From: Bacilli bacterium
Lineage (GTDB): Bacteria > Bacillota_I > Bacilli_A > RFN20 > CAG-826
DNA length: 64,000 bases
Assembly (NCBI GenBank): GCA_017502465.1
Contig: JAFVUY010000119.1
Location: 31,583-95,582 of the forward strand
Direction: 5' to 3'
Shown here in pieces: positions 1-13,739 of the stretch. Position numbers and translations under genes: made by a program. Each line of letters begins with the position of its first letter. The stretch's first letter is position 1. The notes below the pieces were generated by a model. The model had not been told where the DNA came from. It searched no databases and saw nothing but the letters and a program-made list of their open reading frames with translations.

Positions 1-827
1 GCAATATGAACTGCTTGTCCCACATAACACATACCATTTTCAAGGTTGGTGATTTTATAAATACCAGTCTTAACTTTATTTCCAATTACTCTACCAATTA
101 AGTCAGTATAAGGTTTTTCATAATAAACCTTCCATATAACTTTATTAATTGGTTCTTTGTTTCTAATTGTTTGAGTTGCCTGTCGCAGCAAACCGATTTC
201 CGCAATATCTTCATCTGTTAAGACAAGTTTATAGAAATCTTTTTGTGTGCGTTCTAATTCTGCTCGTTTATTTACTTCAACGGCAGCGGCAACTTTATTT
301 TTTAATTCATTTAAAACAAACGTAGACTAAGCAATTTTTTCTTGCTATTCGTCCGCTATATTCTAATAAACGGAAGTAAAGTCAGAAAGCATTATGAGAT
401 ATTCTCTCTCATAGTTTTCTTTCTCTTGGTTAAATTCATTACGAATTTTTTCCAAAGCATTATTTAATCTTTCACGAGCAAGATTCATATTTTCTTCATA
501 AAAAATATCTCCTGCCTATTTAGCCTAATTGCTTAAATCTTGAAGATTTTGTCTTTTTATTACTAATTCTTGATTTAAATTACCAACATCTATAATTAAT
601 TCTAGTTTATGGTCTTCTAAACCTTTTATTTCTTCTTCAATACTTTTTTTTAGATATTTATTTTCTCGCTCTTGTCTTTTATATTCTTGATTAACAATTT
701 CTAATTGTTTATTCTATTTGGCGATTTCTTCATTGTAGATGGTCTATTTTTTAATTGCGGGTCGGGCAAAACCATATCCACATAAACCACCAATGATAAC
801 ACCCGCTACTAAACATAAAAGTTCCAT
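1..827 (-). CDS. Membrane-anchored coiled-coil protein with a C-terminal GIY-YIG-like nuclease motif. The 3' end is cut by the window edge. It contains at least 6 in-frame TAG codons.
   Basis: Minus-strand frame from ATG at 827 reads MELLCLVAGVIIGGLCGYGF (TM) ... coiled coil ... GIYKITNLENGMCYVGQAVHIA. The frame is open except for TAGs (AAA TAG ACC, AAA TAG AAT, AAT TAG GCT AAA TAG GCA, and others). The six-frame track misses it because of the TAGs. Confidence 0.5.
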
Positions 828-1522: not shown

Positions 1523-3460
1523 AGAATATTTAGTTAAGAACTCTTCTTCGGTTATGACTGGAACATTGAGTTTCTTAGCACTCATATTTTTCGCAGAAGT
1601 AGACTTATTATCATTATTGATTAGATAAGTTGTATTCTTGCTAACAGAACTTGATGTTTTACCACCATGAGAACGAATTAAGTCTTCTAACTGTCCTCTG
1701 TTCTTAAAATTAACTAATTTACCAGTAATTACTACTGTAATTCCATCAAGAGATTGCTCTAAATTATTGACTCTTTGAGGATTATTGATTTTTAGATGTT
1801 TATAAACATCGTCTGCTTCACTATAATTGAAGCATATTAAAGCATTATGCTTACTCTCGGCGAACCCATCATGTTGCCAGAAAGGATACTTATTATGTAC
1901 CTTCAATCGCAAATCTTCATAAGAATCAATAAATTTTAGCAACTCTTTTGCCATTGTACGTCCAATCAAAGGAATACCAATAGCAGAAATAAAAGATTCA
2001 AGGTCACAATCTCTTGCTTTTTCAATTGCGGTAAGTATATTCTTTACAGATTTTTCACCAAAACCTGGCTTTTCTTCCCATTCTTTTGCGTGGTCAGCCA
2101 AATTAAAAATATCAGTAAAATTATTTACCCAGTTCCATTCAATTAATTTTTCCAAAGTTGCTTTAGAAAGACCCTTAATATCTAAGCCCTTCTTACCGCA
2201 AAAATGGTCTAATCTATTGATTAGTTTTCCATCACAAATTGGGTTTCCGCACATTAATACCTGTGAATCATTTTCACAAACTATTTCTGTTAGTTCACCA
2301 CAACAGGGACAAGTTTGTTGAATATGAATAAAAGTATATTCTTTACCTTCTTCAATATTTTTATCAGCAGAATAGATTTGAGGAATAATTTGATTTGCTT
2401 TATATACTTCTATCTTCTGGCCAACATAAGGTCTTCCAAGTGTTTCTTTTAAAACACTAATATTATGTAGGCTAGCACGACTAACTTCTGCACCATCAAT
2501 TTCAATGGTGTCAAAAATAGCAATAGGAGTTAATTTACCAGTTCTTCCCATAGTATATTCAATACTTTTTAGAGTAGTAGGATATACCTCATCAAAGAAT
2601 TTATAAGCAATCGCATTTTTAAAATGATGAGCAGTTTGACCTTGTTTTTTACCATATTCAATATCATTGAATTTAAAAACAATACCATCAATAGGATAAT
2701 GATAATGGTCTGCTTGATTTAATAGGTATGTTTCATCATCATAAGTATAAGGTTCTTCCTCTTCATCAATAACTAAATGAGGGACTATTTCAAACCCTAA
2801 TTGACTTAAATGATACAGTCTATTAGCAAAAGAATTATTCTCTTCATATCCCTTAACCATATCCCACGCTACAAAGGTGAGTTTTCTTAATCCGCACTCA
2901 TTCGCATCTAAAAGCCGGATGCTACCGGCAGCAAAATTGCGGGGATTCTTATATTCTTCTTCAAACGTTTTGAAGTCATTATATTTACAGATGACTTCAC
3001 CATCAACTACTAACTCACCTTTATAGGAGATAGATTTAGGAATAGAAGGAATTACTACCGCATTATGGAGGATATTTTCACCAATTTTACCATCACCACG
3101 GGTCTCCGCAGACACCAGAACACCATTAAGATAACGCAATGAGCAAGTTAAACCATCAAGTTTTAACATTGCCACATATTGCTGATTATTCATAAATGAT
3201 TTTACTTCATCCATACTCTTGGTTTTATCCAAAGACAACATAGGATGATTATGTTCTACTTTTTCAAGAGAATTTACTACGTCATAGACGATTCGCTGAG
3301 TGGGGGAATGCGGAAGGGTAAATCCACTCTTTTTTTCCAATTCTTTTAACTCAAAAAAATATTCATCCCATTTTCTATCACTCATAATAGGCGTGCCTAG
3401 GTCATACATTTCCCATGCTTCTACCAATAAGTCAGTGAGATATTTAATCCTTTCTTCCAT
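1514..3460 (-). CDS. ligA: NAD+-dependent DNA ligase
   Basis: 648 aa. Adenylation motif around MLKLDGLTCSL (KxDG). Cys4 zinc finger CPCCGELTEIVCENDSQVLMCGNPICDGK, followed by HhH and BRCT-like C-terminus. No internal TAG. Confidence 0.9.
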   Translation of the reverse strand: MEERIKYLTDLLVEAWEMYDLGTPIMSDRKWDEYFFELKELEKKSGFTLPHSPTQRIVYDVVNSLEKVEHNHPMLSLDKTKSMDEVKSFMNNQQYVAMLKLDGLTCSLRYLNGVLVSAETRGDGKIGENILHNAVVIPSIPKSISYKGELVVDGEVICKYNDFKTFEEEYKNPRNFAAGSIRLLDANECGLRKLTFVAWDMVKGYEENNSFANRLYHLSQLGFEIVPHLVIDEEEEPYTYDDETYLLNQADHYHYPIDGIVFKFNDIEYGKKQGQTAHHFKNAIAYKFFDEVYPTTLKSIEYTMGRTGKLTPIAIFDTIEIDGAEVSRASLHNISVLKETLGRPYVGQKIEVYKANQIIPQIYSADKNIEEGKEYTFIHIQQTCPCCGELTEIVCENDSQVLMCGNPICDGKLINRLDHFCGKKGLDIKGLSKATLEKLIEWNWVNNFTDIFNLADHAKEWEEKPGFGEKSVKNILTAIEKARDCDLESFISAIGIPLIGRTMAKELLKFIDSYEDLRLKVHNKYPFWQHDGFAESKHNALICFNYSEADDVYKHLKINNPQRVNNLEQSLDGITVVITGKLVNFKNRGQLEDLIRSHGGKTSSSVSKNTTYLINNDNKSTSAKNMSAKKLNVPVITEEEFLTKYSLV

Positions 3461-6168: not shown

Positions 6169-6373
6169 TCTCCCTTAATTTTTCTAATATAATACTATCT
6201 TGAAATTCAGGAAGTCCTGTTACACAATAAATTTTTTTTACTAAATATTTTTCATTATCTCTATTTGATAAAAATTTATTAAATAAAATAGCATTTTGTT
6301 CATACTTAAATTGAGGTTCAAAAATTTTACCTTCTTTTGTATGAACTTGGTAATATACATCATTATAGTACAT
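6152..6373 (-). CDS. Hypothetical protein (73 aa)
   Basis: Small ORF overlapping the topo II gene end by 17 nt. Confidence 0.35.
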   Translation of the reverse strand: MYYNDVYYQVHTKEGKIFEPQFKYEQNAILFNKFLSNRDNEKYLVKKIYCVTGLPEFQDSIILEKLREIGYEN

Positions 6374-6767
6374 TAACAGCCTCCGCGCTATGTTCTTTAA
6401 TAAATAACTTTCTAGGAGTAATTGCGGTTCCCATTAAGTCATCAAATAACTTATTTGCTTTATCAATATCTTCAACAGTAATCTGCTTTAAGATTCTATT
6501 ATCTGGGTCTGTTAGAGTTTCTTCTGTCTCTTCAACGGACATTTCACCCAGACCCTTCATTCGGTTAACTGTATAATTGCGACCTTGATGAGCCTGTCTA
6601 AATGCTTCCAGTTCTTCATCATTTTTAAGATACTTATATTCCTTACCAATAGTAATCTTATAAAGAGGAGGAACGCCCGCATATACATAACCATCAAGAA
6701 TTAACTGAGGACAGAAATTCCAAATGAAAGTATAAAATAAGTTTTTGATGTGAGCCATCATATCCAA
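6363..6767 (-). CDS. Topoisomerase II ATPase/Toprim subunit (GyrB-like), C-terminal segment
   Basis: ORF MDMMAHIKNLFYTFIWNF...VYAGVPPLYKI continues the GyrB motif DADVDG-S-HIRTLLLTFF that ends the upstream segment 7793..9307. Confidence 0.7.
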   Translation of the reverse strand: MDMMAHIKNLFYTFIWNFCPQLILDGYVYAGVPPLYKITIGKEYKYLKNDEELEAFRQAHQGRNYTVNRMKGLGEMSVEETEETLTDPDNRILKQITVEDIDKANKLFDDLMGTAITPRKLFIKEHSAEAVNVL

Positions 6768-7792
6768 TATTTCTATTGGGACTGACTATCTCTTACTGCG
6801 GGATGGAAAATTTTTCACCTTTATTTACTAAAAATTTTCCATCCCGCAGAATCCCATTTCGAAGTGCGTATCAATAACACCCCAACTCGCCCGATACGGC
6901 GATAGTCGATACAGGTTAATTGTTAATCCATTTTTTCTATTTTTTAGAATATATAGGTAAATTTTTATAACTACGCCCCCATAGCATAGCCTAAAAAGTC
7001 TAGAATTTCATTTTATCTTTATAATCTTCATAAATATTTTTTGCGGATTCATTGATATATCTAGTTCTAGCAGTCATAACTTCTTCATCTGTTAATTGAG
7101 CACTGGAACCATTACTACCAATACTATTCTCAAGACTATAATATTTTTTATTTTCTTCTGTAAAAACTTCTGGCATAATATGATTCCAAGACCTTCCTTG
7201 CCAAAGGTTTTGAAAATAACTAAAAGATACTTTATCCGCAAAATAATTATTATAAATATCTTTTTGTTTTTTATGCTACGCATAGCACTATCTAATAAAA
7301 TAAACTTCTTTTTCAGTTAATTTTACATTTGGATTATTTTCACCTATTAAATTAGAATTTCCACCTAAATTTTTATTATAACCATTTTCCATTGAGTTAT
7401 AATAAACAATCCAATAAGTTTCTCTTTCATTTAATTTTTCAATAGGACATTCTTCAATAACTTCACAAGTAAAATTATTTTTACCTAATTCTTTAATTAT
7501 CTTATCTAATGGAATTCGTGAAGATTTTCCTTTATAACAATGCTCTGAAAATCTTCTTTCTATATCATTTGACTATCCAATATAAATTTTTCCATTTATA
7601 AGATTTGTAATTTTATATATTCCAATCATAGTTTAACAATCCTTCCCACGGGATTCCCATGCCTTGCGGTTTAGGGTTCCCCGTTAGCATATTTTTTCTT
7701 TCTATTTTATATGAAAACCATATGGGTCTCATAAAAGATAGTTGTCCAAAATATACCCCTGTGATGAGCAGGAAAGGAGATTACAGGCACTT
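6768..7792 (-). mobile_element. About 1-kb intervening sequence splitting the GyrB-like gene; likely a group I intron or an endonuclease-mediated gene split, carrying a GIY-YIG endonuclease gene
   Basis: Upstream segment ends GAT GGT ATG TAA (..DADVDGM*). Downstream segment begins ..GAT ATG|ATG GCT CAC ATC (MAHIKNL). The 5' flank ends in U and the insertion ends in G, as group I splicing requires. There is a GC-rich structured stretch at 7640-7700 and a perfect 20-bp hairpin (ctgcgggatggaaaattttt / aaaaattttccatcccgcag) at 6790-6848. Confidence 0.5.
7008..7629 (-). CDS. GIY-YIG homing endonuclease inside the GyrB intervening sequence; 3 in-frame TAG
   Basis: MIGIYKITNLINGKIYIG-TAG-SNDIERRFSEHCYKG... 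is a GIY-YIG N-terminal module. A TAG replaces the Q/S position of the YIG(Q/S)S motif. Confidence 0.7.
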
Positions 7793-9307
7793 TTACATAC
7801 CATCCACGTCAGCATCACTCATAATAATAATCTTACCATATCGTAAATCTTTCTTATTATAAGTGATTTTCATTGTTTGTTTATCAATGGTTAATCCAAA
7901 TGCTTCAATCATTGTCATAATTTCTGCGTTCTTTTGGATTTTATCAAGAGTTGCCTTTTGAGTATTTAGAATTTTACCTCTTACTGGCATAACCGCCTGA
8001 AATTCATTGTCTCTTGCAGTTTTCAAATTGCCAGAAGCAGAGTCACCTTCTGTGATATAAATTTCACATTTATTGCGGTCTTTACTATAACAATCAGCTA
8101 ACTTACTATCAAATTTTAGAGCCTTTTCTTTCTTCTTTTCAATATTGCGAATAGATTCTTTTGCTTTCTTTGCGGCTTCTCTTGCTTTGCGAGCAAGCAG
8201 GGCCTTATCCGCAATCATTTTTACTTCCTTCTCATTATTATTCATCCAACGAGTAAGTTCTTCTACAAAAGCAGAAATAAAAGGTTTAGTTTCAATTGCG
8301 GTAATTCTTGACTTAACCTGTGCGTCATAAGATACGCTCGGCGCAGTCATATTGAATACAATATACAAACCTTCTTGAATATCATCACCAGTAAGGTTTT
8401 CATCCTTTTCCTTCAACCATTTCTTTTCTCTGAAAAACTTATTCATCTCTCTGGTTAAAGCGGTTTTTACCTGTGTAATATGAGGACCGGATTCAGTAAG
8501 GCCAGTATTTACATATGGAACAATAGTAAGACTATAATTAGAAGTATAAGTCATTACTAAATCCATTTTAAATTTACCATCTTGCCACTTAATATCAAAT
8601 CTATTTTTAATAAGTTCTTTACCCTTTACTGCTTCATCTACGAGGTCGTTAATACCATTTTTAGAATAATATTCAGTAATTTCACCTTTATTAGATAAAG
8701 TAATTTTTAATCCAGGGCATAAACAAGAAATGGTTTTAAAAAGAGTTTTTACTTCTTTAATATTTACCTCAATGTTTTTAAAGAATTCTTCACTTGGCAA
8801 CCAAGAAACAATGGTGCCCGCAGGCTCTTTGCTTTCACCGGACTGTCTAGCAAGAAACTCACCTTCTTTAAACTTAACTAATTCATACTTACCATCTCTA
8901 TAAGTACAAACATTAAGCCAGTGAGAAAGATAGTTAGTAATCTTACTACCGATACCAAAAGAACCAAGCGAAGTTCCTTCATATGTACCATCTTCTCTAT
9001 ACTTACCAGAAGTATTTAAAACGCTAAAAGCGGCTTCAAGAATACTTTTTCCATCTTCTCTAAAAGAATTAGGAATAAAACCTTGGCCGTAATCTCGCAG
9101 AGTAATAACTCCATTATTATCAATTTTTACATCAATCTCATTACCATGACCTAATCTAAATTCATCAACTGCATTAGAAAAAATTTCTACAAGCAATTGA
9201 GTAGAATAAGTCGTATCGCCGGCATAAACGCCTGGGCGCAAACGAGTAAATTCAAGTGGAGAGAGTGATTCAATACTGCTCTCATTATAAAGAGTTTTAT
9301 CGCTCAT
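7793..9307 (-). CDS. Topoisomerase II ATPase subunit (GyrB-like / T4 gp39-like), N-terminal segment
   Basis: 504 aa. GHKL ATPase region (LEFTRLRPGVYAG...). Ends ...IIIMSDADVDGM at the Toprim motif. Confidence 0.8.
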   Translation of the reverse strand: MSDKTLYNESSIESLSPLEFTRLRPGVYAGDTTYSTQLLVEIFSNAVDEFRLGHGNEIDVKIDNNGVITLRDYGQGFIPNSFREDGKSILEAAFSVLNTSGKYREDGTYEGTSLGSFGIGSKITNYLSHWLNVCTYRDGKYELVKFKEGEFLARQSGESKEPAGTIVSWLPSEEFFKNIEVNIKEVKTLFKTISCLCPGLKITLSNKGEITEYYSKNGINDLVDEAVKGKELIKNRFDIKWQDGKFKMDLVMTYTSNYSLTIVPYVNTGLTESGPHITQVKTALTREMNKFFREKKWLKEKDENLTGDDIQEGLYIVFNMTAPSVSYDAQVKSRITAIETKPFISAFVEELTRWMNNNEKEVKMIADKALLARKAREAAKKAKESIRNIEKKKEKALKFDSKLADCYSKDRNKCEIYITEGDSASGNLKTARDNEFQAVMPVRGKILNTQKATLDKIQKNAEIMTMIEAFGLTIDKQTMKITYNKKDLRYGKIIIMSDADVDGM

Positions 9308-10730: not shown

Positions 10731-11030
10731 TTATCCAACAGGTTCATCAGAATTAGAAGTAAGTCACTTCATAACTGTTTCATATTTAATACCGCCTTCG
10801 GTATTTTCTTTTTTAGATTTTTCATAGTAGAAAGCCTAACTAACGCCATATGCGGCCCAGGGGAATCCGGCCATTACAGCAAGCCAGGGCAATTCCCCAA
10901 AATATTGACAAAACACACAAAAATATGCTAAAATTAACATAGCAATAGTGTTTATCCAAATTAAAATAGATTCCTAGACAAGAAGTTGTTTAGAGAATTC
11001 CAATTTGTCTTTTTTCTTTCTTCTTTTCAT
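10731..11030 (-). CDS. Putative holin or small membrane protein (~99 aa), 3 in-frame TAG
   Basis: MKRRKKKDKLEFSKQLLV-TAG-ESILIWINTIAMLILAYFCVFCQYFGELPWLAVMAGFPWAAYGVS-TAG-AFYYEK..: a basic N-terminus and two TM helices. Its start overlaps the endolysin stop (ATGA). Confidence 0.5.
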
Positions 11031-12447
11031 CAAACCTACTCCGTATATGCGAGATTAATCCATCCACGAGGATTTTCAATTTCGCCCCATTCGCCATCAC
11101 TATCAATAATTTTATGAATAGAATTTTTATAAACAATTCCAATAATAGGGTACGCACGACCCGCACCTAAACGCACATTTAGTCCATTAGCAGTCACTCT
11201 GACATTCGCATCTTTTTGCTATTGGATATTATCAATTTTTTGAATTGAAGCAACAGCCTTATCAATAGCAGTTAAAGTCACTGGGCCAGCAATACCATCC
11301 ACTTTTAAATCTTCGTTCTATTGGAATTTTTTAACAGCATTTACAGTAGCATTACCATAATCGCCATCAGCACCCCATATACCAAGATCGTAACCTAACG
11401 CAATTAAATCTTCTTGAAGTTCTTTTACTTCTGCTCCATTAGACCCATAGCGTAAAATTGTAACAGGGGTAGTATTTTCAGTTGTTGGAACCATAGGGGC
11501 ATTTCCACCAAAAGTAGAACGAGGAGATTGCTCATGTCCATACCAAAAAGCTTTATAATTTCTTGTATCAATATGAACAAAATTTTCTCCATTTTTTTCA
11601 TATAAGCCAATACCTTTAATGCCCATTGTTTCCGCTTTTCTTGCCACATCTACTGCTGGAACTGGTTCTTCTACAAACTAAATATCTGCGGCTTCACCAG
11701 TTGAGTGTTTAGAACCACGGGCTCCGCCAACAGCAGCATTATGGGAAGGACATCTGTATCCACTATTAATATTTATTGGTTTATCAAAATAATCTCTTAA
11801 TTCTTGTAAATAATCAACTAATTTAAGGTCAATTTTTACAGTAGAACATTTTCCACATTTACATTCAAATTCACGAGAGTTAAAATTTTTACTTAACTAA
11901 ACATTTTCTCCGCGAGTATATGTCTAAATTCCCATTGGTTTTTCAACTCCTTTCGCATATTTATTATAAAATTTCTAACTATATGATAATCTAATTGCTG
12001 ACTGCGCAGATGCATTAGCAGGATTTTCAAATTTATAAAGAACAGCATCTGATGCCTCTTGGAGAGAAGATGCATTTAATAAAACTTTATAAACGGAATT
12101 AGTATAGTTATTTTTTAATTCATTAACTAAAAATTTTAATTGAGTATCTAAATTTCCAATTGAAGTATTTAAATTTTTAGCAAAATTGTATAAATTTCTT
12201 TTGCGGGTGTGATAGGTCCATTGGGCTAATCCATAGCCCGCACAATCATTGATAAAATTATCATATGAACCATCATCTACTGCTTTGGTATATTCTTTAT
12301 CTGAATATCCTAATTTAGTATTATAAATATTTTCTAAATTCTCTGGCTATAAACCAGATTCTGCATATAAATTACCCATTAAACCAGCAACACCATAATC
12401 ATTAAAACCCGCTGATTTTAGATAATTCCAAATATATTTTTCCATTT
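11030..12447 (-). CDS. Multi-domain endolysin (~472 aa): lysozyme-like N-terminus, M15-type L-Ala-D-Glu/DD-peptidase, PG_binding_1 and SH3b; 6 in-frame TAG
   Basis: One continuous minus-strand frame from the ATG at 12447 (RBS GGAGGGAG). It reads MEKYIWNYLKSAGFNDYGVAGLMGNLYAESGL-TAG-..., then ..SGYRCPSHNAAVGGARGSKHSTGEAADI-TAG-.. (peptidase M15 motif), then ..FVHIDTRNY.., then VKELQEDLIALGYDLGIWGADGDYGNATVNAVKKFQ (PG-binding), then -TAG-..NGLNVRLGAGRAYPIIGIVYK...GEWGEIENPRGWINLAYT (SH3b). The ORF track shows only fragments (11318..11647). Confidence 0.7.
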
Positions 12448-12494
12448 TATCTCCTCCCTTTTGAGATAAAAAAAGTAAGCCAGAAAAATCTGGC

Positions 12495-13739
12495 TTACAT
12501 ATATTCTGCTATTTGAGCAATTTTTGAACGATGAATATTTTTTAATTCAATTTCACCATATATGTCGCTGCCTCTAAATACCTTAGAAACTCGCTTCATA
12601 CCATTGTTTTCCCCCGCAAACTCTACTAAATCCACCTGAGTTTTGTCATCACCATCAATAATACAAATACTATCTTCCCCAATGCGTTGTAGGGCAAGTT
12701 TCATTAATGTAATATCAAGGTTTTGCGCCTCGGAGATATAAATACCCGCTCTCATTCCAGTTGTATCATATCCTCTAATATCAGACATAGGTAGTAAGAT
12801 TAATTTTTCATCATTAATCATTTGTTCTACTGCAATTCTTCCACCAAATTTACTACTTAATAAATTACCGATTTGTGAGTCTAGTAATTTTTCATCGCGA
12901 GTACCAGGATAAAATCCTAATTTAGCAGAGTTTTTAGTTGCGACTGTATTACAGAATACAATGATTTTATCAATTTCTCCTTTTTCAAGTCGGTTTAATA
13001 AGAAACTTAAAGATAAAAATGTTTTTCCTGAACCGGCTGGGCCTTTCAGCATAGTGATTTTATTATTTACTAAACTGTCTGCCGCAAGAGATTGATAAAT
13101 ATCATTTTTTAATGGTTTAACTTTACCAAACCATTTAGAACTGAAATCAGAGTAACTTAAATAACGATAGCCATCCCCAGTCCAACAGAGTCTATCAAGA
13201 GGGTTTCCCGCAGTATCACAGATAACAATATATTCATTAATCATTAAGTCAAACATATTGAAGTTTTGACGACTATAAAAGTCTGCCATCTATTGGTCAT
13301 TAAGATTTACAATTTTATATCCACAATAACCATCATCTTCAATTTTTACTGATTCAATACTATCATTTCCAAAGAATAGATTAGCAATATTATATAAGGC
13401 TAAATCATTAGTTACAAAAATGGTATCATCAGGACATATTAACATATCATAATCAATAGCGCATGATAGAATTTTTAAATCATTATTAAAAGTCTCAAAT
13501 CCTTTTTCTTTAATAGGACCAAGCATATAATCTCTAAAAATCCATACATCATAATTATCTGTATTATCTGCGAGTTGAGATAATAATCTTCTTGCTTTAT
13601 ATTTAGTTTCAGGGTCTTTATGAGCAGAAGTTTTAATTCCCTCTAATTCTTCTAATGTAATAGAAGAAATAATAAATTTGCCTTCACTAAATAAATCATC
13701 TACTTTTAACAGTAGGCTACAAGTGTCATAAAATTTCAT
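12495..13739 (-). CDS. phoH: PhoH2-type protein: N-terminal PIN domain fused to a PhoH-like ATPase through an in-frame TAG
   Basis: ORF 13290..13739 (PIN-like) ends at TAG (plus-strand cta at 13290-13292). The next codon is the ATG of ORF 12495..13289 (Walker A LKGPAGSGKTF, PhoH family). The frame is continuous if TAG is a sense codon. Confidence 0.7.

What the first reader, a model, noticed from the sequence alone, without database searches (positions are those of the whole stretch)
6363..9307. GyrB-like topo II subunit interrupted by a 1-kb GIY-YIG-bearing insertion with a perfect 20-bp hairpin
The ATPase segment ends DADVDGM-TAA and the Toprim continuation starts (M)MAHIKNL, exactly inside the conserved DADVDG-S-HI motif. 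Flanks are compatible with group I splicing (U at the 5' exon end, G before ATGGCT). But the stop and start codons sit exactly at the junction, which also fits a T4-like split gene producing two polypeptides. The insertion holds a GIY-YIG gene with 3 TAGs and a 20-bp perfect stem (6790-6848).
Basis: partly seen in the sequence, partly recalled or inferred. Interest (0 to 1): 0.6.

Follow-up and report, generated by a model that had tools for sequence, protein, structure and literature searches.

The report
Self-splicing intron in phage gyrB gene
The 1-kb insertion in this phage's GyrB-like topoisomerase gene is a mobile group I self-splicing intron carrying its own homing endonuclease gene: a well-known kind of element, here sitting in the enzyme's metal-binding motif, with the endonuclease gene written in the phage's altered genetic code.

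Summary
A GyrB/ParE-like gene on the minus strand is interrupted by 1043 nt (7798-6756) between the Gly and Ala codons of DADVDG|AHI.

The insertion is a group I intron, not a T4-style split gene.
- Joining 7799 to 6755 gives a 633-aa protein colinear with S. pneumoniae ParE. It is identical across the junction to about 80 uninterrupted homologues.
- The intron has P3-P9, a P3/P7 pseudoknot, P7.1/P7.2 and R/S-like core sequences.
- On 19 family members, 96% of cells pair and 30 of 52 pairs show compensatory changes.
- The guide sequence pairs with the 5' exon through a U·G wobble, and it changes with the exon at 8 different insertion sites.
- One relative has an ORF-less 282-nt copy at the same site.
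- Relatives with the intron 7 nt upstream have no start codon for the downstream piece.

The I-TevI-like GIY-YIG ORF (7629-6916, in the P6 loop) has six in-frame TAGs, not three. They are sense codons (Gln). A tRNA-CUA lies in the window, and TAGs otherwise cluster in the endolysin and fibre-like genes.

Splicing itself was not shown. This is a new member of a known kind, of moderate interest.

The parts
7799..9307 (-). Exon 1 of the gyrB/parE-like gene (503 codons: ATPase, transducer and the first part of Toprim, ending ...DADVDG). Unspliced, it reads on through ATG TAA (stop at 7795-7793).
6756..7798 (-). Group I intron, 1043 nt. It follows U7799 and ends with the terminal G at 6756.
7786..7790 (-). 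Internal guide sequence GUGCC. GCC pairs with exon GGU (U·G wobble at the splice site). GU pairs with intron nucleotides 1-2 (P1, 5 bp).
7773..7782 (-). P3 5' strand, AAUCUC-C-UUU.
   Evidence: helix 1; 4 of 5 pairs covary
7758..7772 (-). Hairpin between P3 and P4 (P3.1 by position): CCUG-CUCAUCA-CAGG.
   Evidence: helix 2
7689..7754 (-). Second, long hairpin between P3 and J3/4 (P3.2 by position). Its closing stem is AUAUUUU/AAAAUAU.
7645..7688 (-). J3/4 and the P4-P5-P4' domain, followed by the P6 5' strand (GCUAAC GGGG AA CCC...GGG AA UCCCGU GGG). P5 has a GCAA tetraloop.
   Evidence: (helices 3, 4)
6916..7629 (-). I-TevI-like GIY-YIG homing endonuclease ORF in the P6 loop: 237 codons plus TAA, with six in-frame TAG (Gln) codons at 7575, 7290, 7278, 7002, 6993 and 6939.
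6903..6915 (-). P6 3' strand (CCU, directly after the ORF stop), J6/7 (GUAUC) and P7 5' strand (GACUA). Together these form the R-like element.
   Evidence: (helices 4, 5)
6861..6902 (-). P7.1 (UCGCC-GUAU-CGGGCGA) and P7.2 (GGGGUG...CACUUC, with the family-invariant loop UAUUGAUAC).
   Evidence: helices 6, 7
6850..6859 (-). P3 3' strand, AAA-U-GGGAUU.
6796..6849 (-). P8, extended to a perfect 20-bp stem with a 14-nt loop.
   Evidence: helix 8; all 6 counted pairs covary across the family
6764..6795 (-). J8/7 (UAAGAGA), P7 3' strand (UAGUC, the S-like element) and P9 (CCAAUA-GAAA-UAUUGG).
   Evidence: (helices 5, 9)
6363..6755 (-). Exon 2 (AHIKNL... to the stop): the rest of Toprim and the GyrB C-terminal domain.
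48936..49010 (-). Suppressor tRNA with anticodon CUA. It is needed to read the six TAG codons of the intron ORF.

Best explanation
The insertion is a mobile group I intron of the phage IA-like type. It has P7.1/P7.2, no P2, and two hairpins between P3 and P4. It sits in the gyrB/parE-like gene of a TAG-recoded phage.

Inferred mechanism:
1. The gene is transcribed as one pre-mRNA.
2. The intron folds, and its guide sequence (GUGCC, 7790-7786) pairs with the exon end GGU and the first two intron bases.
3. A free guanosine attacks after U7799.
4. The freed exon then attacks after the terminal G6756.
5. The ligated mRNA encodes a 633-aa GyrB/ParE-like subunit with an intact DADVDGAHI motif. This subunit works with the GyrA-like protein encoded downstream (6168-3829).

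The P6 loop carries an I-TevI-like GIY-YIG endonuclease gene. By analogy with I-TevI, the enzyme would cut intron-less alleles in co-infecting relatives, and repair would copy the intron in.

The ORF's six in-frame TAGs are read as Gln by the phage's tRNA-CUA. The endonuclease can therefore be made only once suppression is active, probably late in infection.

Shown here: the anatomy, the covariation, the exon colinearity and the sense reading of TAG. Inferred: splicing, homing and timing.
For: 1. Exon colinearity. Joining 7799 to 6755 gives a protein that aligns without a gap to ParE 4juo_C (E 5e-112). It is 20/20 identical around the junction to uninterrupted homologues. The best 80 relatives in viral contigs (77-84% aa) are all uninterrupted.

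2. Core structure.
- RNAalifold on 19 family members with the ORF removed found P3, P4, P5, P6, P7.1, P7.2, P8 and P9 on its own.
- With P7 added as a pseudoknot, 96.3% of cells pair and 30 of 52 pairs have changes on both sides. No shuffle out of 500 reached this, and slid controls pair at 37-48%.
- The Rfam Intron_gpI consensus aligns its R and S elements, P4-P6 and P8 to the ORF-less relative.

3. P1.
- A guide G at a fixed place, 2-4 nt before P3, pairs with the exon's last U in all 19 members.
- Exon-side pairing averages 4.05 bp with the cognate exon and 1.52 bp with non-cognate exons.
- At this site the guide's fourth base follows the synonymous Asp codon (GAC with GCCG, GAU with GCCA) in 5 of 6 loci.
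- All 6 intron-bearing alleles at this site have GGT, against 29 of 72 intron-less alleles.

4. L145 has a 282-nt ORF-less copy at the same codon boundary.

5. Five relatives checked with the intron 7 nt upstream (phase 2) have no in-frame start codon before exon 2.

6. Endonuclease.
- Pfam GIY-YIG E 3.6e-12; TIGR01453 'group I intron endonuclease' 78.1 bits against a cut-off of 56; I-TevI catalytic domain E 8e-13.
- Four of the six TAGs align to CAA (Gln) in homologues that have CAA (Gln) there. The protein stays conserved (57-65% identity) right through them to a shared C-terminus.
- A tRNA-CUA is present.

7. The ORF-deleted intron folds at -102 kcal/mol, z = -4.5.
Against: - No RNA data: splicing was not observed.
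- Rfam RF00028 scores only 16.9 bits on the window's 3' half and 16.6 bits on the ORF-less relative, against a gathering score of 50. It finds nothing on the whole region.
- P1 in this copy is short: 3 exon-side plus 2 intron-side pairs. Its fourth position is a U-U mismatch, unlike its relatives.
- P10 is weak.
- The stop right after the 5' junction and the two in-frame AUGs right before exon 2 would also allow two separate polypeptides from unspliced RNA.
- P7 and P4 are invariant, so they carry no covariation evidence.
- Part of the alignment's relatedness may inflate the shuffle control.
Confidence: 0.88

Rival explanations
1. Split gene in the manner of T4 genes 39/60 or Aeh1 nrdA. The insertion acts only as a homing-endonuclease cassette. 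The two ORFs (504 aa and about 130 aa) are translated separately and assemble into the enzyme without RNA splicing.
For: - A TAA lies one codon after the junction.
- TTG, ATG and ATG lie in frame just before exon 2.
- There is precedent in the same gene family: the T4 MobA cassette splits the Toprim domain (10.1101/2022.08.31.505936). MobE splits nrdA in Aeh1 (PMC3045599, listed).
Against: - A complete, covarying group I core with a matched guide sequence has no role in this model.
- There is no recognisable Shine-Dalgarno before the ATGs, whereas gyrB itself has AGGAG.
- There are no added terminal extensions such as the split T4 proteins always keep.
- The ORF-less copy at the same site (L145) and the phase-2 copies without any start codon cannot work as split genes.
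- The stop next to the junction is absent from other introns at this site. The terminal AUG is the family's A-Y-G ending.
Confidence: 0.05
2. Both at once. The intron splices, but a fraction of unspliced pre-mRNA also yields an N-terminal ATPase fragment, and perhaps a C-terminal fragment, with some function or cost.
For: - The in-frame stop and AUGs are present at the junctions.
- Early termination in unspliced RNA is expected for any intron that has a stop near its 5' end.
Against: - The junction codons are not conserved.
- The downstream AUGs lack a ribosome-binding site.
- They lie in the 8 nt directly after P9 at the intron's 3' end, which in group I introns generally is held in the folded ribozyme core.
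Confidence: 0.1
3. Decayed element. The ribozyme or the endonuclease is no longer functional, and the gyrB gene of this phage is inactive or on its way to loss.
For: - In-frame TAGs could be read as nonsense mutations.
- P1 is weaker than in relatives.
- P7.1 is shortened.
Against: - Both exons are intact and highly conserved.
- Every core helix pairs in this copy.
- The ORF is conserved at the protein level beyond each TAG.
- A tRNA-CUA and TAG-containing late genes (an endolysin with 9 TAGs) show that TAG is a sense codon in this genome.
Confidence: 0.03

Closest known systems
Phage T4 td intron with I-TevI (group IA2 intron carrying a GIY-YIG homing endonuclease)
   Same: - The endonuclease's catalytic domain matches I-TevI (PDB 1LN0/1MK0, E 8e-13) and TIGR01453.
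- P7.1 and P7.2 lie between P7 and P3'.
- The host gene is an essential DNA-metabolism gene of a lytic phage.
- From my own knowledge of td: its ORF also sits in the P6 loop, a stop codon follows its 5' splice site, and the intron ends ...AUG.
   Different: - The host gene is gyrB/parE-like, not thymidylate synthase.
- There is no P2 between P1 and P3. Instead two hairpins lie between the P3 5' strand and J3/4. P3.1 is a listed optional pairing (PMC3873408).
- P8 is extended to 20 bp.
- The ORF uses TAG as a sense codon.
T4 gene 39 / mobA / gene 60 cassette (split topoisomerase II large subunit with a 50-nt ribosomal bypass)
   Same: - Same enzyme family and the same Toprim metal-binding motif.
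- In a T4-like phage the 50-nt coding gap follows GAT GGA of DADHDG and resumes at LGS (L203). That is the same codon boundary as this intron (DADVDG|AHI).
- Both are homing-endonuclease-driven insertions in the most conserved stretch of the gene.
   Different: - The T4 element is a free-standing HNH endonuclease (MobA). It truly splits the gene, adds terminal extensions and relies on ribosome hopping.
- Here there is a ribozyme, a GIY-YIG enzyme, no extensions and no take-off/landing codon pair.
Recoded group I intron endonuclease in an early gene of TGA-recoded 'Agate' gut phages (Borges et al., preprint 10.1101/2021.08.26.457843)
   Same: An intron-encoded endonuclease rich in the reassigned stop codon sits inside a standard-code early gene. 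The authors propose that this delays endonuclease production until late infection. The same pattern appears here: 6 TAGs in the ORF and none in the gyrB exons, gyrA, ligase or RNase H.
   Different: - The reassignment here is TAG to Gln rather than TGA to Trp.
- The host gene and the intron anatomy are worked out here. Orthologous endonuclease genes in relatives carry 0, 0, 2, 4 or 6 TAGs.
Intron-rich gut and Firmicutes phages (Jug phages, PMC12880540; Enterococcus phage VRE9_3)
   Same: - Many essential phage genes are interrupted by group I introns with or without endonuclease genes. Splicing was confirmed by metatranscriptomes in Jug phages.
- Enterococcus phage VRE9_3 carries a member of this same intron family around its annotated 'homing endonuclease' (L001).
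   Different: No report was found of this family in a gyrB-like gene or at this motif. Only three literature searches were run, so the absence is weak evidence.

Membership tests
Group I intron | Core helices P3-P9, with the P3/P7 pseudoknot supported by covariation. | tested here: met
   52 pairs, 96.3% of cells paired, 30 pairs with changes on both sides, 0/500 shuffles as high. P4 and P7 are invariant and therefore uninformative.
Group I intron | Conserved core sequence elements (P/Q around P4, R/S around P7). | tested here: met
   the Rfam consensus GUUCAaAGACUA aligns to CUGUAUCGACUA and AAGAUAUAGUC aligns to AAAGAUAGUC. The same strings are in the window at 6912-6902 and 6791-6782.
Group I intron | The 5' exon ends in U, paired with a G of an internal guide sequence (P1). 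| tested here: met
   a U·G wobble in all 19 members. The guide changes with the exon at 8 sites. In this copy P1 is only 3+2 bp.
Group I intron | The intron ends in G, and exon ligation restores the reading frame. | tested here: met
Group I intron | The Rfam RF00028 covariance model is matched at its gathering score. | tested here: not met
   16.9 and 16.6 bits against 50. The low score fits the two IA-type hairpins (P7.1, P7.2) left unaligned as an insertion and the unmatched P3 5' strand seen in the alignment.
Group I intron | Guanosine-dependent self-splicing. | not testable with these tools
   No RNA data. Needs an in vitro splicing assay or RT-PCR.
Subgroup IA (IA2-like) | P7.1 and P7.2 lie between P7 and P3'. 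| tested here: met
   (helices 6 and 7, both covarying)
Subgroup IA (IA2-like) | A P2 hairpin lies between P1 and P3, as in T4 td. | tested here: not met
   Only 2-4 nt separate the guide sequence from P3. Two hairpins follow the P3 5' strand instead. Subgroup-specific models were not available.
GIY-YIG intron-encoded homing endonuclease (I-TevI type) | A GIY-YIG catalytic domain, encoded in a peripheral loop of the intron. | tested here: met
   The ORF lies between the P6 strands (7645 and 6915).
GIY-YIG intron-encoded homing endonuclease (I-TevI type) | Cleaves the intron-less allele and promotes homing. | not testable with these tools
   Indirect only: patchy presence among close relatives.
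T4 gene 39/60-type split topoisomerase | A free-standing endonuclease cassette without a ribozyme, conserved added C- and N-terminal extensions, and a 50-nt bypass with matched take-off and landing codons. | tested here: not met
   a ribozyme is present. Exon 1 reads only one codon into the insert. There is no bypass cassette.
Intein | An in-frame insertion with a Hint domain. | tested here: not met
   A stop lies one codon into the insert. The only Pfam match for the insert's ORF is GIY-YIG.
TAG-to-Gln recoded phage (code 15) | A suppressor tRNA-CUA. In-frame TAGs at conserved Gln positions. TAGs concentrated in late genes. | tested here: met

The most novel reading that the evidence does not exclude
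Homologous copies of one intron-plus-endonuclease unit occupy two sites 7 nt apart in the same motif (GACGU| and GAUGGU|). Each has a guide sequence re-matched to its own exon. The copy in this window is a mosaic: its P1-P3-P3.1 and P7.1 resemble the ORF-less intron found in the ATPase domain of a sister gyrB, while its P3.2 and endonuclease gene resemble the copies 7 nt upstream.

This would mean that introns of this family move to new nearby sites by swapping or re-targeting the guide module (reverse splicing or intron-intron recombination), while the endonuclease keeps driving spread.

The same inter-codon position is used by the T4 gene 60 bypass element. The DxDxDG codons would then be a shared hotspot for unrelated 'harmless insertion' strategies.
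Probability: 0.3. Interest if true: 0.55.

Novelty: new member of a known kind. Interest (0 to 1): 0.35.

Why it matters
For annotation:
- This gyrB should be called as one spliced gene of 633 codons, not as two fragments plus broken ORFs.
- The intron ORF must be translated with TAG as Gln.
- The intron family is widespread in viral metagenomes. A simple core pattern hit at least 120 contigs, of which 25 stretches carried the family's full set of core motifs. Rfam's group I model nonetheless scores two members 33 bits below threshold, so such introns may be under-called.

For biology:
- It adds a clean example of an endonuclease gene rich in a reassigned stop codon inside a standard-code replication gene.
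- It shows the Toprim metal-binding codons as a repeated target of mobile elements: an intron at two sites 7 nt apart, and the T4 bypass gap at the same boundary.

Tried and rejected
- **Rfam on the whole region**: no match at E<=1. On the two ORF-less relatives searched whole: no match. Only sub-threshold Intron_gpI hits appeared when short stretches were scanned. The 5' half alone gave only chance miRNA-like hits.
- **blastn against GenBank phages**: only four short hits of about 75% identity. No close sequenced relative exists there.
- **First P1 test**: it allowed any G within 42 nt and did not discriminate (4.4 against 3.8 bp). It was replaced by a fixed-position test.
- **, window row**: the row for the window itself was computed in the wrong frame and is not used. 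Its junction codons were read directly.
- **Canonical P3 5' strand**: I looked for one directly before J3/4 and found none. Covariation places it upstream of the two hairpins.
- **Intein**: rejected because of the stop codons and the absence of a Hint domain.
- **Terminator reading of the 20-bp hairpin**: rejected. It sits at the P8 position, and a helix of different sequence is present there in every family member.
- **Other copies in the window**: motif search and the Rfam gathering scan found none.
- **A covariance model of my own**: not built, because the alignment has 416 columns and the limit is 400.
Full report
**What is there.** All features lie on the minus strand.
- An ORF at 9307-7793 encodes 504 aa ending ...IIIMSDADVDGM, followed by TAA.
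- An ORF at 6767-6363 begins (TTG)M-D-M-M-AHIKNL.
- Removing 7798-6756 (1043 nt) joins ...GAT GGT to GCT CAC... and gives a 633-aa protein.
- That protein carries HATPase_c, DNA_gyraseB, Toprim and DNA_gyraseB_C domains.
- It aligns end to end, with no gap at the junction, to S. pneumoniae ParE (4juo_C, E 5e-112; 'iimsdadvdgahiknl' against 'IIMTDADTDGAHIQTL').
- A GyrA-like ORF of 779 aa follows at 6168-3829.

**Uninterrupted relatives.** A search of viral contigs with the C-terminal 232 aa of the joined protein found 205 relatives.
- The best 80 (77-84% aa identity) all have an uninterrupted gene.
- In eight of them printed out, the DNA is contiguous exactly where I place the junction, and the 20 residues around it are identical to the conceptual splice product except one Ala-to-Ser in L047.
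- The insertion is therefore a sporadic gain in an otherwise conserved gene.

**The insertion is a group I intron.**

*Finding the family.*
- A core-like pattern taken from the 5' part (ACGGGGAACC...AATCCCGTG) hit at least 120 viral contigs.
- Local comparison and a second search with the endonuclease protein sorted the relevant ones as follows.

| Location of the intron | Loci | ORF |
|---|---|---|
| Same gyrB site as here (GGT\|) | L204, L205, L206, L209 | endonuclease gene |
| Same gyrB site as here | L145 | none (282 nt) |
| gyrB, 7 nt upstream (GACGT\|) | L094, L101, L132, L193, L197, L207, L208, L211, L212 | endonuclease gene |
| gyrB ATPase domain (GSFGIG\|SKIT) | L105/L108 | none |
| Other genes, including Enterococcus phage VRE9_3 | L001 and others | mixed (some with an endonuclease gene) |

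*Structure.*
- On 19 distinct members with the ORF removed (alignment A1), RNAalifold predicted P3, a hairpin after P3, P4, P5, P6, P7.1, P7.2, P8 and P9 unaided.
- I added P7 as a pseudoknot and counted pairs: 96.3% of 984 cells pair, and 30 of 52 pairs show changes on both sides.
- No shuffle out of 500 reached any of the five measures. Sliding the partners by 1-3 columns drops pairing to 37-48%.
- P3 is especially clear: one column pair reads AU:5, CG:5, GC:5, UA:1, UG:1.
- P4 and P7 never vary, so they say nothing either way.
- The Rfam group I consensus aligns over its full length to the ORF-less L145 intron. It matches P4-P6, the R element (GUUCAaAGACUA to CUGUAUCGACUA), P8 and the S element (AAGAUAUAGUC to AAAGAUAGUC). 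It leaves P7.1/P7.2 as an insertion and fails to find a P3 5' strand in the usual place.
- The score is only 16.6 bits (16.9 on the window's 3' half) against a gathering score of 50. By Rfam's own criterion this is not a hit.

*Unusual layout.*
- The guide sequence is followed after 2-4 nt by the P3 5' strand.
- Two hairpins then lie between P3 and J3/4.
- P3.1 is a recognised optional pairing (PMC3873408).

Every family member has a helix there, of 5-20 bp and different sequence.

**Splice-site evidence.**
- In all 19 members the exon ends in U, opposite a G at a fixed position of the intron.
- Exon-side pairing averages 4.05 bp with the cognate exon and 1.52 bp with non-cognate exons.
- Guide and exon change together across sites:

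| Locus or group | Exon end | Guide |
|---|---|---|
| gyrB, 7 nt upstream | ACGU | GCGU |
| L145 | UGGU | GCCA |
| L001 | GAGGU | GCCUC |
| L201 | AAUGGU | GCCAUU |
| A second host gene (two variants) | UGUUC / UAUUC | GGACA / GGAUA |

- At this site the fourth guide base tracks the synonymous third base of the Asp codon in five of six loci. The window's own copy is the exception, with a U-U mismatch.
- All six intron-bearing alleles at this site use GGT for the Gly codon, against 29 of 72 intron-less alleles.
- All introns end in A-Y-G.
- In this copy P1 is short: GGU·AU with GUGCC.

**Against a split gene.**
- L145's ORF-less 282-nt insertion at the same boundary would simply break the gene if it were not spliced.
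- The copies 7 nt upstream interrupt a codon (phase 2). The five checked have no ATG, GTG or TTG between the nearest upstream in-frame stop and exon 2.
- Other introns at the window's site do not have a stop next to the 5' junction. One ends in ACG rather than AUG.
- The two AUGs before exon 2 lack a Shine-Dalgarno, unlike the gyrB start, which has AGGAG.
- The stop and start 'exactly at the junction' are therefore not a conserved design.

**The endonuclease and the genetic code.**
- The ORF at 7629-6916 lies between the two strands of P6. Its TAA abuts the P6 3' strand.
- It matches Pfam GIY-YIG (E 3.6e-12), PHROG homing-endonuclease families, TIGR01453 'group I intron endonuclease' (78.1 bits, cut-off 56.05) and the I-TevI catalytic domain (E 8e-13).
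- It contains six in-frame TAGs. Four align to CAA (Gln) in homologues that have CAA (Gln) at those positions.
- Protein conservation (57-65% identity) continues through all six to a shared ...KKWIN end.
- The window holds a tRNA with anticodon CUA.
- Read with TAG as sense, TAGs cluster in an endolysin (9), fibre-like ORFs and two other endonuclease genes. They are absent from ligase, gyrA, the gyrB exons, RNase H and RNA ligase.
- This fits the published model of stop-codon recoding as a late-gene switch. That work already describes a recoded intron endonuclease in an early gene of TGA-recoded phages (10.1101/2021.08.26.457843).
- Orthologous endonuclease genes carry 0, 0, 2, 4 and 6 TAGs.

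**Comparison with T4.**
- In a T4-like phage, gene 60 reads ...ATG ACA GAC GCA GAT CAC GAT GGA | TAG..(50 nt)..| TTA GGT TCT (L203).
- The bypass gap therefore follows the Gly codon of DADHDG, the same boundary as this intron.
- The T4 element is otherwise different: a free-standing HNH endonuclease, a truly split gene with added extensions, and ribosome hopping.

**Verdict.**
- This is a group I intron with an I-TevI-like homing endonuclease gene in a phage gyrB/parE-like gene.
- The anatomy and comparative evidence are strong (confidence 0.88). Splicing, homing and late-only endonuclease synthesis are inferred.
- It is a new member of a known kind.
- The more interesting side issues are the re-matched guide sequences at two sites 7 nt apart, the apparent mosaic make-up of this copy (a rough segment comparison only), the shared boundary with the T4 bypass, and the failure of Rfam's model to detect the family.

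Noticed in passing
window 56681-57355 (-) and 51543-51652 (-): A ROOL RNA (RF03087, 305 bits) and a drum RNA (RF02958, 79 bits) lie inside the phage's tRNA array.
   Followed up: no
window 45862-60337 (-): An array of at least 25 tRNA genes. It includes the suppressor tRNA-CUA (48936-49010) and an ARAGORN call with a four-base anticodon 'aaag' (53373-53446), which might be a frameshift-type tRNA or an artefact.
   Followed up: no
window 50750-50880 (-): An Rfam tRNA match (55 bits) with an insertion of about 59 nt in the anticodon loop. The insertion forms its own hairpin (CUAAGAU...AUCUUAG). ARAGORN does not call it, and it is too short for a group I intron.
   Followed up: partly
window 11030-12520 (-), 33312-35501 (-), 36188-36997 (+), 42462-44027 (+), 47347-47868 (-), 1-827 (-): In-frame TAGs are concentrated in an endolysin (9), fibre-like ORFs (3-4 each), an HNH endonuclease (2) and a second GIY-YIG ORF cut by the left edge of the window (7). 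Replication genes have none.
   Followed up: partly
L105/L108 (about 290-900), L094, L101, L132, L193, L197, L207, L208, L211, L212: Sister phages carry the same intron family at two further gyrB sites: an ORF-less copy in the ATPase domain (GSFGIG|SKIT), and an endonuclease-bearing copy 7 nt upstream of this window's site with a guide sequence matched to ACGU.
   Followed up: yes
L203 715-795 (Escherichia phage vB_Eco_F26, gene 60): The 50-nt translational bypass gap follows the Gly codon of DADHDG. This is the same inter-codon position as the intron in this window.
   Followed up: yes
window 7798-7758 and 6902-6887 versus 7754-7689: The intron looks mosaic. P1-P3-P3.1 and P7.1 are closest to the L105/L168-type introns (62-88% identity). 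P3.2 resembles only the gyrB copies 7 nt upstream (60-70%, at most 25% to the others).
   Followed up: partly
L001 about 2100-3200 (Enterococcus phage VRE9_3, PP680569.1): The annotated 'homing endonuclease', and the small 'hypothetical protein' CDS that overlaps its 3' end, lie within an unannotated member of this intron family. All core motifs are present.
   Followed up: partly
L090, L092, L111, L112, L138, L149, L169, L176, L194, L202: Another host gene (...KYVF|HDYIH...; not identified) carries the same intron family. Its P1 shows a G-C to A-U swap matching the exon (UGUUC/GGACA against UAUUC/GGAUA).
   Followed up: partly
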